Notes under the pieces: generated by a model
Told to the model about the DNA's origin: nothing
Seen by the model: the letters and a program-made list of their open reading frames with translations, nothing else
Database searches by the model: none
Position numbers and translations under genes: made by a program
Source of the DNA: Octopus sinensis
Lineage: Eukaryota
Assembly (NCBI RefSeq): GCF_006345805.1
Contig: NC_043001.1
Location: 51,770,001-51,834,000 of the forward strand
DNA: 64,000 nucleotides
Direction: 5' to 3'
Part shown: positions 9,694-63,791 of the stretch, in pieces
Layout: the number at the start of each line of letters is the position of its first letter
Position numbering within the stretch: the stretch's first letter is position 1

Positions 9694-12488
9694 CAGGGGT
9701 CTCCAAAGTTTTCCAGCGGAGGGCCACATTGCTGAATTTTTAAAGCTACGGGGGCCAAGGTTCTAAATTATTTATTTTACCAAAATAATATAAATAAATA
9801 GTGAATTAATAATTAAAAAAGGTTATTTATTCAGTACATAATCACAATGTATATAATATCAGTAACAATTAACATGTTTTTTTTAACTTTGATCAATAGG
9901 GGAAACATGAAATTGTTTCATTTCTGACAAAATTTTGTCCAACTGAGGTTCAAAATGAGTGGTTCCAATAACAAGCAATGCATTTAAATGTTCATCAGAC
10001 AATTGTGATCTGTAGCAGGATTTTGTGTATTTCATCTTTGAAAAAGTCTTCTCACACAAATATGTGGTGCCAAAAACTGAAATGAATTCACAGGCAAACC
10101 TCCTTAAATGAAGAAATTGGTCGGATGGAAGGCATTTGTAGAATTCAATCAAATTTCCCTCTTTATATTTGTCCTTCAGGATGTCATTGGATTGCAAATC
10201 AATAACTTCCATTTGTAACTCAGAAGGTAAGTCTCCAATAACAGAGTTAAATGGATTTTCAAAAATTCTTAGTTTTGAAGAACATGCATCAAGATCAGAA
10301 AAACGTTCTTCAAACTGTTGTTTCAAAGCTAAAATGACATCTTGAGCAAACAAGTTTGGAAATGGAGTGGCAGCTTCCTGTCTATATTTGTCACATCGTG
10401 AAAAATGAGTAAAGCAGCTTCTTGTTAACTGACTTTCAAATAGTATTAATTTCTTACGAAAAGCTTTCACCTTTGAGTACAAATCACAGATGAGTGAAGT
10501 TTCACCTTGTATCCGTAGGTTGAAATCATTGAGATGCATAGTTAAATCGGCTGAAAATGCTAATTTCCAGAGCCATTCACTGTCTTTGAGCAACACCTGT
10601 GAATGGTTTTTCTCATTTAAAATCTTATTGAAGTATAGTAAGGTAGGTCTGGAAACTCAGCATTCATTTCCTCCAAGAAATCACGAAATTGGCGATGTTT
10701 GAGTCCATGAGATCTTATGTAGTTAACAGTGGAAATCACAGGATCTAATACAGATGATAAATCAAGATGCTTTCCACACAGTGCTTGCTGATGAAGAATA
10801 CAATGCAATACCAAAGGTTTCAATCCACCGGAATTCTCAATTACTTTGTTAATTTGCCCAACTAAGCCCTTTTTGGTTCCACACATATTTCTGCCACCAT
10901 CTGTTGTTATGCATTTTAGTTTTTTCCATTCCAAATTATACTCAGCCACTGACTTTTCCACTTCTCTAAAAATATCTATGCCTGTTGTTGTTCCATGCAT
11001 GCTGTGCACAGATACAAGTTCCTCAGTAATCTCAAAATTGGCATTTATTCCTCTGATGAACAATAACAATTGGGATGTGTCTGATACATCAATTGACTCA
11101 TCAAGTGCAACAGAAAAGCATACAAACTTGCTGGCTTTGTCTTTTAGCTGTGATTTAATATTTCTTTCAATATGTTCAACCCTACGAGCAACAGTGTTCG
11201 CAGAAAGACTAATTGCGGAAAATAAATCTACGTTTTCTGGACACATTTCCTTAGCTACCTCATTCAAGCACTTTTTAATAAGTTCACCATCTGTAAATGG
11301 CTTACCTTTCTTCGCCAAAAGGTTAGCAACATGGAAGCTTGCTCTTGTTGCTCTCTCTTTTTCTACAGCCTTCTTCTTGAAAACAAACTGCATTGATGAT
11401 AAATTCTTCTTTAATTTGTCAAATTTCTCTTTACGTAGCTGTCCAATGAATTGGTAGTACTGTGATGAATGCTTTTTTTCATAATGTCTCCGAATGTTGT
11501 ACTCTTTAAGTACTGCAATTGTGTCGGTGCATATAACGCATAGTGCCTTGTTGTTTAACTCTATGACAAAATAGTCTATGTTCCATTGTTCCTTAAAAAC
11601 TCTACACTCAGAGTCGATTTTTCGCTTTCTTCCTTGAGCTAACATTTTTACCATGGGTCGACAGATTTTGCTCGACGATATATGTAAAAGGACGAAACAA
11701 GTAAAAACAATATTCACAGGTCACTCGATACGTGCATTCACTTCGGCAGCGACGACGACAAATGACTCACACTTGTGCACAACGAAAACGCCAAGTCTGT
11801 GCTGACTGACGGAATGCGCATCGAACTTTACTCCACGCTGATTGGCGACTGCACCAGGATTAGAAACCACCACACAACGTCAGGCTCAACCCTCTCTATT
11901 CATCGCTCGTGAGATGTAGGTAACATCGATAAATCGATATTTGTCTTCTTTTATTATACTAGGCACGGGACTTTTATTAACGTCATACTTGTCGTATCTG
12001 CTCTCTCAACAGTTGACGGAATAGGTTGACTTTTCTGCGACATCAATAAAGCTAGAAATTGAATCTCTGCTTCATTGTAAGCAGCACCATCCATCTCACT
12101 GACAATCGCCTATTATCTAAGATGAATGATAGGTAGCTCCATAGCGAAGTTAATTCATTTTATGGTGGTTCTGATGGGTCAGTTAAAACGGGGGGAGTGG
12201 AAAAGAACCTATATTTACACTAAAGTTTAGTGTATAATTTTTAATTCGCCGGCGCAATTTAAAGACATTAATTGATGGCAAATCAATTAGCGTCGTCTTG
12301 CGTCTATTTGCTGTACTATATTTGTCAAACGTATTAAAAGGGGTGTAAAGTATATTTGTTTTTGTATGATTTCGGCAAGGCTTGTTTTTCGACATTTGTT
12401 TTATAATTTTGGAGGACAGCTCGGCAGGCCGGATTAAAAACCTTGGCGGGCCGAATCCGGCCCGCGGGCCGTACTTTGGAGACCCCTG
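9694..12488 (-). mobile_element. hAT (Buster/Charlie group) DNA transposon, 2795 bp
   Basis: Perfect 16-bp TIRs CAGGGGTCTCCAAAGT (9694-9709, 12473-12488) and perfect 8-bp TSD tgcTAgac (9686-9693, 12489-12496). Subterminal GGCCCGCGGGCCGGATTCGGCCCGC is typical of Charlie-type ends. Confidence 0.97.
9883..11654 (-). pseudogene. hAT transposase (SPIN/GTF2IRD2/EPM2AIP1-like), frameshifted by a deletion near 10620
   Basis: ORFs 11654-10617 and 10596-9883 carry a BED-like finger (CVIC..NIRRHYEKKH), FSVALDES, TTDGG, CILHQQAL and TTYLCEKTFS plus the dimerisation domain. The RW(LS) block expected after YYTSIR is missing. Confidence 0.92.
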
Positions 12489-47845: not shown

Positions 47846-47940
47846 GTGTGTGTGTGTGTATACATATATTCTCTCACTCTGTGATAGTTTCTAGTTCGAA
47901 TATATATATATATATATATATACCACACACATACACATAA

Positions 47941-48093
<153 letters not shown>

Positions 48094-49383
48094 TGCCTGC
48101 CGAAATCAACAATTTTCTTTACCGGAGACATCAATAAATTTCATGAATAGACTATTTGTCCTTATTTCATTGTTATTTACATTTTTCTCTCCCGTCTTTT
48201 GTATTTCATGACCAAGCAGGCAACACTAAAAGAGTTGACCTCTGGCCACGGGTCAGGAGCGGGCTTCAGTTCAATTTAAGAAACCCTTCATATAATTATA
48301 GCTGCAGCCTATGAACGATAGCAACATTCAACCTTACCTTTTGAAGCATGTCTAGATAAGGTTCTGGAGTTCATCCGTACATTGGGAACTAATCACACAC
48401 TTAATTCTTTTTCTATTAAGTTCCCATTAAATTTCTATTGTAACAAAGTTAGATCGGAAGATATATTATATTTAGTACATAAATATGCACGTACACGTTT
48501 GAAAATACACTCACACTCACAATGAGAGTGAGAGAGAATGTGATTAGGTTGGTAAATAGGTAAATAAGCGCGCACATTCGTATACATATATGCATACACA
48601 AAGAAGAAAAAAATTCAGACGAACATCGTGAGAGAAATAAAGAAAGAAAGAATGAGAACCGACGAAGAAATGAAGAGAATAATAGAAAGAAAAACATTGG
48701 TTGAGAAATAGGAAAAGATAGAGATATAGGTATATGTAGATAAGGTGGGTATAGTAATTGAAAAATCTGAATTGAGAGTGACCGACATATAGATAAGGAA
48801 AGAGTTATAGATAGAGATAGTGTATGATGGGTTGAGAAGAAGGTGGGAGAGCAGGTAGGTTTTTTTTCTAAAGGATCATTCTGAACCCTAACGTAGAAAT
48901 GCTAATATTATTTTCTTTTGAATTTACCAAGCATCCTATTTTTTATTGAGCAAAATGTAGACATTGAATAAATATATTACACACATACATGCATAAAGAC
49001 AGACATGTGTGCATGTATGTATATGTAATCACTTTACTTATTCTACCAATATCCGAATTTGCTTCCCAATCACATGGTTCCGGGTTCACTCCCTTGGGCA
49101 AGTGTCTTCTATTGCCACGGGCTAACCAAATCCTTGTGAGCGGATTTGGTAAACGGCAAATGAAAGAAACCCGTCATATATACATGTTGATTTGATCAAC
49201 TGAGAGCAATAGGATTCTATTTCTATATCAGGGTTGACTGATGAAAAGGGTCTAAGAGATCAGTTCATTCTCATTAATCTCTCAGTGGAACTGGTGAAGA
49301 CAACAGGCCGAGGATTTGTTTTACAATATGGAAAGATGTGGATTCACTTTCGGATCTTAGTTTTGCTATTTTGTAGATGTTCG

Positions 49384-61830: not shown

Positions 61831-63083
61831 GAGAGCGGGGCGTCCAGCAATTTAAAAGGTTTTTCATAATTGTTAGTTTCATAGTGAGAATCGCTATTTT
61901 TGTAATTTTTTGTCCTGTGTATTCCCTCATTATAAGCAACGAGTTTGCTCAGACAGCCGGCACTTACCATTTCACTAGCAACAAGGGAAGTACAGAATGA
62001 CAGTCAGCCAAAACCGTCACCATGTTGTCTCTCATCTTTCCTCTCTCTGCCTCTCTATGATGTCCGATTCCACTTGAAGTTGTATATATATTGTGTTATG
62101 ATTCGTTAACTATCAATTATCCTTATTGAAAAGAAACAGTCAAAAGTAACCACCACATACAATCACCAAACATCTCCACAACTTAACACCATCCAAGTTA
62201 ACCCTCTTCACCTTTACAGCTGACATGAGAAAGTACGAGATAAAGGCAACCATTTTAATTAAGCAAAAAAGAGAAAAAAATCGATTGCTGTTAAAACGTG
62301 TAACATTTTGGGGCTAATAATCTTAATCTTTAGTTACAGTTTCTCATAAAAGCTACATAATAGGCAGATTTGTCGGAATAAGACAGTAGGGTGTTTTGAA
62401 GGAGATTTGGCTGCTATTTCTATCAGGTCTAGCTACCATATAGAGGTCTCCCTCATTGGCTCATATGTACATATATACATACATTTATACATAAAATCGA
62501 AATAAAATACTTAAAGCAACAAGCGACAAATACAAAAGCCAAGGTCCATGCAGTGTCATGGGCCAAAAGAATTTCCAACTTCTTGCTTAATGCGAGCCTA
62601 TAGCAATCTCATCTCTAACATTATTTTTGTATTACGTCTCTATTGCAATGTGAGATAATACTTTCAGAACGCAAAACATCCAGACAGTTAGGTGATACAA
62701 AAAAAAAAGGAGCAACAAAACATGCAAATAGACGATACAAAGAAAACAAGGACAGGTAATTTGGGATTTTCTTTCCTCAGTCGAGTTCCAAATTATCTTT
62801 GCAATTTTGGCTGTTTATACTCGAGATTGCTCCAATCTGGCCAGCATATATATATATATATATACATACGCGCCCCACCCTTATATACACACACACACAC
62901 ACACACACACATATAAATATATATACATACAAATATATATATATTTACATATACATACATATATATATATACGTAAATATATAGGCTAGCGAATATTTTT
63001 AGAAATTTCACCACCAGTGGCCTAGCATGTATAAAAAGTCAATAGACAACATATTCTCAATATAAAATAGTGTACATTTAAAC

Positions 63084-63156
63084 ATGGTTACTGATGAGGA
63101 TTCGCCTAGCAAATTATTTAAATTGCTAAAGAAATCTGAAACCTAGGTATAACCGT
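63084..63156 (+). ncRNA. Type I hammerhead ribozyme (near canonical)
   Basis: atggtta-CTGATGA-ggatt..(tagcaa/ttgcta)..aatct-GAAA-cctagg-TA-taaccgt. Stem I is 7 bp, stem III is the palindrome ACCTAGGT, and cleavage is predicted after GUA at 63149. Confidence 0.78.
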
Positions 63157-63445
63157 AAAAAAATAAGAAGGTAAAAGTTTTTATTTTTGATTCCCTTCGA
63201 AAATTGCTCTTAAATGTGGTTTTGGCCGTTTTGACCGCTTCTTCTAGCGTGTAAAAATTACCTGTTAAAGGTAGTTTTCTCTTGTGTTTAAATGCACACA
63301 ATTTTATATTGAATATATTTAATTGAATTTAAATTATTATTATTCGAATTAAGTTATGGGCATGAAACGATCGCAGTGGTTTTACTTTTTATCTTATATT
63401 AAACTTTTTAATACTTTTTGATAGTTATATATATTTAAAAAAATA

Positions 63446-63503
<58 letters not shown>

Positions 63504-63506
63504 AAA

Positions 63507-63665
63507 TTCAAAATTTAAATTATTTATATTTAAAGTTAAAAATTAAAAATTATTAATTCATATTTATAAATTTATATATATATTATATATATATATATAA
63601 ATTTATAAATATGAATTAATAATTTTAAATTTTTAACTTTAAATATAAATAATTTAAATTTTGAA
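63507..63665. repeat. Near-perfect AT-rich palindrome
   Basis: Arms of about 75 bp with one visible mismatch around a (TA)n centre. Confidence 0.85.
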
Positions 63666-63791
63666 ATTTTATATTTTACATATTTTGTATATTATATTAA
63701 TTAATTTTATTTCTATGTTTTGGTTTATGTTTGTCACTGTTTGATTTACCTAATAGTGGTTTTATCTCTAATTTAATTTATATATATATAT

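What the first reader, a model, noticed from the sequence alone, without database searches (positions are those of the whole stretch)
62985..63420. Nearly intact hammerhead ribozyme in a roughly 440-bp non-coding unit between (TA)n tracts
Seen: all hammerhead core nucleotides (CUGAUGA, GAAA, UH = GUA), a 7-bp stem I (atggtta/taaccgt), an unusually long stem II with an inner tagcaa/ttgcta hairpin, and a palindromic stem III (ACCUAGGU). The only deviation is G-U instead of G-C closing stem II. A 27-bp inverted repeat (63058-63084 and 63285-63311) encloses it, and gaaacgatcg at about 63364 may be half of a second motif. Known: type I hammerheads with palindromic stem III occur in Penelope-like pseudo-LTRs and retrozymes and can cleave as dimers. 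Inference: this is a cephalopod retrozyme or Penelope-dependent element that may make self-cleaving or circular RNA.
Basis: partly seen in the sequence, partly recalled or inferred. Interest (0 to 1): 0.72.

Follow-up and report, generated by a model that had tools for sequence, protein, structure and literature searches.

The report
Old two-armed hammerhead retrozyme copy
This is one aged, truncated copy of a dispersed 460-base non-coding repeat that carries a well-conserved, predicted self-cutting RNA motif and was likely pasted in by a Penelope-type jumping-gene enzyme, a kind of element already known from other animals.

Summary
The hammerhead is real: 1 hit in the window, 0 in 200 shuffles, and stems I and II covary across 16 related subfamilies. 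The 440-bp unit is not. It is a two-armed insertion of a 460-bp, ORF-less tandem monomer (family A): an inverted arm (62967-63084) plus a 5'-truncated arm (63084-63318). The '27-bp inverted repeat' is where the arms overlap. From 63319 a truncated copy of a second hammerhead family begins, so the 'second half-motif' is real but belongs to another element. G-U at the base of stem II is the family norm (40 of 47), not decay. 3' ends fall at two fixed sites, mostly before TA-rich repeats, and two-armed copies use one site each (10 of 10 scorable). An autonomous Hydra-like Penelope element does the same (9 of 9), and one chimera joins it to a sister family. No sequence homology ties it to family A. 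5' ends do not pile up at the predicted cut. Family A is middle-aged (median 4.5% divergence). Cleavage, circles and expression are untested. This scan has reported the same kind from other loci in this genome. Verdict: new member of the animal non-LTR retrozymes; modest interest.

The parts
62911..62983 (.). TA-rich microsatellite tract at the outer (3') end of the inverted arm; likely target site
62967..63084 (-). Inverted arm of family A: monomer positions 372 to 460 and on to about 28, ending at 3' site 2
   Evidence: 94-95% to the natural array L014
63084..63318 (+). Forward arm of family A, 5'-truncated at monomer ~174, ending at 3' site 1 (monomer 405); the arms meet at about 63083-63086
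   Evidence: 92% to L014; 3.6% from the column majority
63084..63156 (+). Type I hammerhead motif: 7-bp stem I, core CUGAUGA (63091-63097), 40-nt two-part stem II closed by G-U, GAAA (63138-63141), predicted cut after 63149
63141..63148 (+). Self-complementary helix III (ACCUAGGU), predicted to pair between two ribozyme copies
   Evidence: monomer pair probability 0.00, homoduplex -11.4 kcal/mol
63051..63084 (-).
63285..63318 (+). Right copy of the 34-nt overlap (monomer 372-405)
63319..63790 (+). 5'-truncated copy of a second hammerhead repeat (family B), joined directly to the 3' end of the family A arm, ending in TA repeats at about 63780-63790
63364..63375 (+). 3' half of the family B hammerhead (GAAA, palindromic helix III); CUGAAGA half absent, GUA mutated to GCA at 63374; predicted dead

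Best explanation
The locus is an aged, 5'-truncated, two-armed copy of a 460-bp non-coding tandem repeat with a conserved type I hammerhead motif, likely inserted by a borrowed Penelope-type enzyme, and this copy is probably inactive. Shown: the repeat, its period, lack of an ORF, covarying stems, two fixed 3' ends mostly followed by TA-rich repeats, one end per arm, arms that run on across the predicted cut site and across monomer boundaries. Inferred: tandem source arrays are transcribed; two adjacent hammerheads pair through the palindromic helix III and cut after GUA, releasing a 460-nt monomer that a host ligase could close into a circle; a Penelope-like RT/GIY-YIG protein nicks both strands of a TA-rich target and primes reverse transcription on uncut multimer or circle from two internal sites about 80 nt apart, one per nick; the two cDNAs meet and join at short microhomology, leaving back-to-back arms. 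Here the right-hand nick would have fallen at the AT-rich 5' edge of a truncated family B copy. The likeliest helper is a Hydra-clade-like PLE (about 50%).
For: Dispersed family: 101 matches listed from 40 scored of 3569 candidates; exact 26-mer 33 hits vs 0 control. Natural tandem with period 460; longest ATG ORF 37 aa, 29% GC, circular fold z -4.0 against 60 shuffles. No PLE ORF adjoined any of 20 10-kb regions or 14 family C regions. Covariation in 16 hand-picked subfamily representatives, at positions the search patterns did not fix: stem I pairs 1-4 paired in 61 of 64 cells with 2-5 pair types each, stem II pairs 2-5 in 62 of 64, one shift allowed. In 72 copies picked by a motif downstream of the ribozyme: 3' ends at site 1 in 41, site 2 in 16, elsewhere 15; 24 two-armed, and all 10 with both ends at standard sites use one of each; 8 arms exceed one monomer. 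An autonomous PLE with RT, C-terminal GIY-YIG, DKT, CxxC and CxH motifs and its own long-stem hammerhead (Hydra features per PMC8557442 section 11) ends mostly in (TA)n at two sites, one per arm in 9 of 9 scorable loci of 40 (read by hand). L182 is a single insertion with a PLE arm and an arm that runs from PLE ORF end into a sister retrozyme 63% like family A. Two internal RT start sites and double-strand cleavage of AT-rich DNA are shown in vitro for a lizard PLE (PMC11167929).
Against: No blastn homology between family A and the sampled PLE ends, unlike Xenopus retrozymes that match pLTRs. No family A-PLE junction in 114 loci examined, some duplicates. The chimera is one locus of a sister family. 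No genomic trace of cleavage: 0 of 63 arms at risk end within 2 nt of the cut; this fits a circle or uncut RNA but equally an inactive ribozyme. G10.1-C11.1 is called highly conserved (PMC4209133) and is G-U here. Only 18 of 72 unselected copies keep an intact core. 8 of 9 Xenopus retrozyme dimers did not cleave in vitro. The helper lacks the CxCX5C linker described for Hydra (vs 79). No target-site duplication at this locus.
Confidence: 0.8

Rival explanations
1. Family A is the detached pseudo-LTR of an autonomous Penelope-like element whose full-length copies are lost or were not sampled; the copies are ordinary truncated PLE ends, not an independent retrozyme.
For: Same target, two 3' sites and inverted arms as PLEs (PMC8557442 passages). 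Retrozymes are proposed to derive from pLTRs. Only a fraction of copies was read.
Against: The long copies inspected wrap into the next monomer instead of running into an ORF; 8 of 72 arms exceed one monomer; no adjoining PLE ORF in 34 flanking regions and no PLE junction in 114 loci.
Confidence: 0.1
2. The element spreads by the same PLE route, but its hammerhead is a non-cleaving or protein-dependent relic; templates are uncut read-through transcripts and no circular RNA is made.
For: No pile-up of 5' ends at the cut site; G-U closure and a long, bulged stem II; the lizard PLE hammerhead needs protein and is dispensable for insertion in vitro.
Against: Core, both stems and self-complementary helix III are kept across subfamilies as distant as 63-65% identity, including two relatives found by whole-monomer similarity rather than by the core pattern. 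Arms longer than one monomer fit a circle. This rival differs from the best explanation only in the RNA step.
Confidence: 0.25
3. A satellite or MITE-like DNA repeat spread by DNA-level processes, with the inverted repeats as terminal inverted repeats and the hammerhead as a chance match.
For: Inverted arms and tandem arrays exist; Rfam gives no hammerhead hit.
Against: Arms have fixed 3' ends and scattered 5' ends, the mark of target-primed reverse transcription; about 1000 hammerheads of this build against 10 control hits; compensatory changes in both stems.
Confidence: 0.02
4. The A-B junction at 63318/63319 is a template switch within one reverse transcription event, not two separate insertions.
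For: Direct join with similar sequence on both sides and no TA run between; the 5' part of the B copy is not upstream; a PLE-retrozyme chimera exists at L182.
Against: The join falls exactly on family A's standard 3' site 405, as expected for priming from a target nick; both families favour TA-rich targets; it is the only clear case in 114 loci.
Confidence: 0.2

Closest known systems
Metazoan non-LTR retrozymes (Cervera and de la Pena 2020, PMC7229834; passages and sections 14 and 17 read)
   Same: Non-coding, low-GC tandem repeat with one type I hammerhead per unit, dispersed as monomers and short arrays; predicted highly self-paired circle; coexists with hammerhead-bearing PLEs.
   Different: Monomer 460 nt against about 170-400 nt there; 40-nt two-part stem II closed by G-U; cleavage and circles are shown for coral, mussel and axolotl, untested here; no target-site duplication seen at this locus.
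Non-LTR retrozymes as non-autonomous PLE derivatives (Li, Clavereau, Pollet, bioRxiv 10.64898/2026.07.22.740005; parts 1-3 of 5 read)
   Same: Tandem type I hammerhead repeats, size within their 51-972 bp range, many solo copies, co-occurring PLEs.
   Different: They link Xenopus families to PLEs by pLTR homology; family A shows none to the PLEs sampled, and the link here rests on insertion anatomy. No mollusc among the groups they list.
EN+ Penelope-like elements, Hydra clade (Craig et al. 2021, PMC8557442; passages and section 11 read; mechanism in Frangieh et al. 2024, PMC11167929, parts 1-2 of 4 read)
   Same: 5' truncation, partial tandems, inverted 5'-truncated arm, a tail at one end only, (TA)n targets, hammerhead near the 3' end.
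   Different: No ORF; the tail here is about 80 nt against 30-40 nt described; the whole element is the repeat unit.
Dimeric type I hammerheads of PLE pLTRs and amphibian satellites (Cervera and de la Pena 2014, PMC4209133; part 1 of 4 and passages read)
   Same: Weak palindromic helix III predicted to need a dimer; larger than usual helix II.
   Different: G10.1-U11.1 instead of the conserved G-C; no extra base between positions 9 and 10.1 in family A; 7-bp helix I.

Membership tests
Type I hammerhead ribozyme | Core CUGANGA, GAAA, NUH with three helices in type I order | tested here: met
   33 of 47 ribozyme-spanning copies keep the core pattern
Type I hammerhead ribozyme | Covariation in helices I and II | tested here: met
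   61 of 64 and 62 of 64 cells paired over 16 representatives; shuffle control, does not correct for relatedness
Type I hammerhead ribozyme | G10.1-C11.1 closing pair | tested here: not met
   G-U in 40 of 47 family A copies; G-C 5, G-U 4, unpaired 7 among 16 representatives. A usual but not universal feature: an axolotl form with U-U cleaves.
Type I hammerhead ribozyme | Match to an Rfam hammerhead model | tested here: not met
   no hit at E up to 10; the 40-nt stem II is a likely cause (inference)
Type I hammerhead ribozyme | Self-cleavage at the predicted site | not testable with these tools
   needs in vitro transcription; no genomic trace in 5' ends
Metazoan non-LTR retrozyme | Head-to-tail repeats of a few hundred bases, one hammerhead per unit | tested here: met
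   period 460 in L014; related trimer in L063; the window copy itself is a partial monomer
Metazoan non-LTR retrozyme | No protein-coding capacity, low GC | tested here: met
   longest ATG ORF 37 aa, 29% GC
Metazoan non-LTR retrozyme | Dispersed copies with retrotransposition marks | tested here: met
Metazoan non-LTR retrozyme | Expressed as linear and circular monomer RNA | not testable with these tools
   only contigs of runs with guessed type were available
Metazoan non-LTR retrozyme | Homology to the pLTR of an autonomous PLE | tested here: inconclusive
   none to two sampled PLE families; other PLE families were not sampled
Autonomous EN+ Penelope-like element | ORF with RT and GIY-YIG domains | tested here: not met
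Autonomous EN+ Penelope-like element | 5' truncation, inverted arm, tail at one end, (TA)n target | tested here: met
   same pattern in the autonomous element

The most novel reading that the evidence does not exclude
A superfamily of about a thousand long-stem-II hammerhead retrozymes in this genome, some young, is mobilised in trans by a Hydra-clade-like Penelope element with which it shares no sequence. Both leave the same signature: two nicks in (TA)n each prime from a different fixed internal site on a circular RNA, giving back-to-back arms, and the enzyme can switch between helper and passenger RNA within one insertion. This would name the helper enzyme of an animal retrozyme and explain the one-sided PLE 'tail'.
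Probability: 0.35. Interest if true: 0.6.

Novelty: new member of a known kind. Interest (0 to 1): 0.3.

Why it matters
The copy itself is an ordinary decayed insertion. The family adds a long-stem, G-U-closed hammerhead retrozyme from a group not covered in the retrozyme papers I read (no 'octopus' or 'cephalopod' in the main text of PMC7229834; no 'hammerhead' or 'retrozyme' in the O. vulgaris repeat annotation PMC13282606). Which enzyme moves animal retrozymes is still stated as a hypothesis in those papers. The shared one-site-per-arm rule and the L182 chimera give a named candidate and a direct in vitro test. Young sister families are better material than this locus.

Tried and rejected
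Rfam scans found no hammerhead. Single-strand folding of the motif alone is unremarkable (z -1.3 for 81 nt, -2.4 for 440 nt). Expression: no RNA holder listed; contigs laid cannot show start, strand or level, so the depth step near the cut site was not used; no listed contig bridges the window's junctions, which proves nothing. A first PLE family (L081-L095) was rejected as helper: it ends mostly in (TAA)n and has no similarity to family A. Six widely spaced inverted family B pairs held no PLE ORF. An apparent pile-up of 5' ends just after the cut site vanished when mapped to seven better natural references; it came from a deletion in the L014 reference. Most 'B-adjacent' hits are matches to TA runs and were discounted. 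Pfam does not recognise the candidate helper's ORF pieces; its assignment rests on motifs read by eye. Earlier-findings look-ups by sequence, near place and words returned nothing. Paper searches listed no paper on a cephalopod retrozyme; subscription papers and supplements were not seen, and supplementary tables of PMC7229834, PMC4209133 or the 2026 preprint could list such families.

Full report
Observation. The hammerhead described is present at 63084-63156: stem I ATGGTTA/TAACCGT, CUGAUGA at 63091, a 40-nt stem II closed by G63098-U63137 with an inner TAGCAA/TTGCTA hairpin, GAAA at 63138, the palindrome ACCTAGGT and A63149 as the predicted cut site. A pattern demanding core plus paired stems finds this one site in the window and none in 200 dinucleotide shuffles. 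Rfam finds no hammerhead, and the motif's folding energy alone is not unusual.

The unit is different from the one proposed. A genome search returned a dispersed family (101 matches listed, 40 of 3569 candidates scored). A natural array in L014 gives the period, 460 bp. Against it the window splits into an inverted arm (62967-63084; monomer 372 through 460 to about 28) and a forward arm (63084-63318; monomer ~174-405). Positions 372-405 occur in both arms, which is the reported inverted repeat (30 of 34 matching). From 63319 the sequence belongs to a second repeat, family B (107 exact 23-mer hits, 0 control). Intact B copies carry CUGAAGA, a stem II of about 70 nt with U-U at its base and the palindrome ACGATCGT.

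The ribozyme is under structural constraint at family level. Among 47 ribozyme-spanning copies from 42 loci (selected for carrying this region), 33 keep the core, 23 core plus palindrome, and 40 have G-U at 10.1-11.1. Genome-wide there are 212 hammerheads with this helix III against 1 control hit and 796 more with other centre dinucleotides against 9. Of the first 100 listed, counted by hand, the centre is GA 40, AT 27, GC 22, CG 1, other 10. Half are perfect palindromes; GA would give tandem G-A pairs in a dimer (recalled as a stable motif, not tested), so palindromy is common but not universal. In 16 representatives that I picked, stem I pairs 1-4 are paired in 61 of 64 cells and stem II pairs 2-5 in 62 of 64, with several pair types per position; the 10.1-11.1 pair is G-C in 5, G-U in 4, unpaired in 7. 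Two relatives in L167 were found by whole-monomer similarity (65% to family A, 71% to family C) and keep the core, so core retention is not only an effect of the search pattern. In a monomer helix III has pair probability 0.00; as a homoduplex it is -11.4 kcal/mol, matching the dimer model of PMC4209133.

The family is non-autonomous as far as sampled. The monomer has no ATG ORF above 37 aa, 29% GC and a circular fold at z -4.0. Long copies wrap into the next monomer. No PLE ORF adjoins the ribozyme in 20 10-kb regions or 14 regions of related family C. It is middle-aged: 42 copies lie 1.3-11.6% (median 4.5%) from the column majority, the window copy 3.6%, and no two loci exceed 96.9% identity. 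Sister families with 444-546-nt periods have units 93-99% identical within an insertion and near-identical ribozymes across loci, so parts of the superfamily are younger.

Insertion anatomy. To avoid selecting for the ribozyme I took all 72 exact hits of a motif downstream of it. 3' ends fall at site 1 (monomer 380-416, mostly 396 or 405) in 41, site 2 (about 455-32) in 16, elsewhere in 15, mostly followed by TA-rich repeats. 24 have an adjoining inverted arm; 14 of these have an end off the standard sites and were not scored; the other 10 all pair site 1 with site 2. With the observed 41:16 split, independence gives about 0.4 per case, about 1e-4 for ten (hand calculation). The window copy follows the rule. 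This lead came from earlier scan notes on other families and is confirmed here on family A. Eight arms exceed one monomer; 18 of 72 keep an intact core. 5' ends are scattered: 63 of 72 arms reach the cut site and none ends within 2 nt of it, so the templates were circles or uncut multimers, or the ribozyme was not cutting.

Helper. One PLE family (L081-L095) ends mostly in (TAA)n and was set aside. A second, abundant family (13867 candidates) has RT, a C-terminal GIY-YIG, DKT, CxxC and CxH motifs and a long-stem hammerhead in its 3' end, fitting the Hydra clade of PMC8557442 except for a missing CxCX5C linker. It ends mostly in (TA)n at two sites about 145 nt apart, one per arm in 9 of 9 scorable loci among 40 (read by hand; one duplicate and one broken locus dropped). 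At L182 a single insertion has a left arm of this PLE type and a right arm that runs from the PLE ORF end into 1.8 units of a sister retrozyme 63% like family A, with no PLE remainder beyond it in the fetched stretch. Against this link: no blastn similarity between family A and the sampled PLE ends, and no family A-PLE junction in 114 loci.

Mechanism. Shown steps are the anatomy above. Inferred: transcription of tandem arrays, dimeric cleavage, ligation to a circle (shown for coral, mussel and axolotl elements in PMC7229834), then target-primed reverse transcription from two nicks at two internal RNA sites, as the lizard PLE does in vitro (PMC11167929), with the arms joined in the middle. The same paper shows that hammerhead cleavage is not needed for insertion, and 8 of 9 Xenopus dimers did not cleave, so a non-cleaving relic remains a real rival. 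This copy has one complete hammerhead and no upstream part, so it could at most be cut in trans and cannot release a monomer.

Expression could not be judged: no holder is on record as RNA and contigs cannot show it. The window's other frames show only hAT transposase fragments and one weak hit below cut-off.

Verdict. A real type I hammerhead motif in a decayed two-armed copy of a non-LTR retrozyme family, abutting a truncated second family. It works like, and meets the testable criteria of, a metazoan non-LTR retrozyme; it is not an autonomous PLE. The scan has reported the same kind at eight other loci of this genome; none matched this sequence. Papers: PMC4209133 part 1 and passages; PMC7229834 passages and sections 14, 17; the 2026 preprint parts 1-3; PMC8557442 passages and section 11; PMC11167929 parts 1-2; PMC13282606 passages; no supplements read. 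Interest 0.3.

Noticed in passing
L182:700-2200 (G000:C1, about 104607300-104608800): Chimeric two-armed insertion: left arm is the 3' end of a Hydra-like PLE, right arm runs from a 75-nt piece of the PLE ORF end into 1.8 units of a sister retrozyme; TA repeats on both sides.
   Followed up: partly
window 63319-63790; L096-L115, L130-L135: Family B: AT-rich repeat with a hammerhead whose stem II is about 70 nt long with U-U at its base, weak stem I and palindrome ACGATCGT; no ORF found upstream in 26 loci.
   Followed up: partly
window 63503-63669: 81-nt inverted repeat, 98% complementary, 5-nt spacer, inside the family B copy just after the TA run; a local inversion or an assembly artefact.
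   Followed up: no
L264:1300-1500 (about 0.8 kb past the window end): 3' end of another family B copy on the minus strand, facing the window's copy.
   Followed up: no
L178, L179, L184, L185, L191: Young 545-nt family whose helix III centre is GA, not palindromic; 40 of the first 100 hits.
   Followed up: partly
L176, L177, L180, L181, L187: Young 444-nt family with helix III ACCGCGGT; tandem and two-armed, L176 uses one 3' site per arm.
   Followed up: partly
L014, L063, L064, L167, L176, L182: Motifs shared outside the ribozyme by sister families: a TGCG-rich near-palindrome followed by TTTGAAAA about 100 nt upstream, and a T-rich TTTTCA motif about 25 nt downstream of the cut; candidate promoter or RT-binding elements.
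   Followed up: no
L172:831-2850; L063:6188-7375: Two further hammerhead-type repeat families: 600-nt period with helix III ACGTACGT in a four-copy two-armed array, and a 535-nt tandem with an inverted arm.
   Followed up: no
L081-L095: PLE family ending mostly in (TAA)n whose 3' UTR has CTGATGATG but no canonical GAAAC-NUH half.
   Followed up: no
window 9886-11720 (minus): hAT/Spin-doc-type transposase fragments (PF05699, PF18658, PF14291).
   Followed up: no
window 47888-48208: Weak NAA35-like TPR hit below the curated cut-off in a repeat-rich frame; probably spurious.
   Followed up: no
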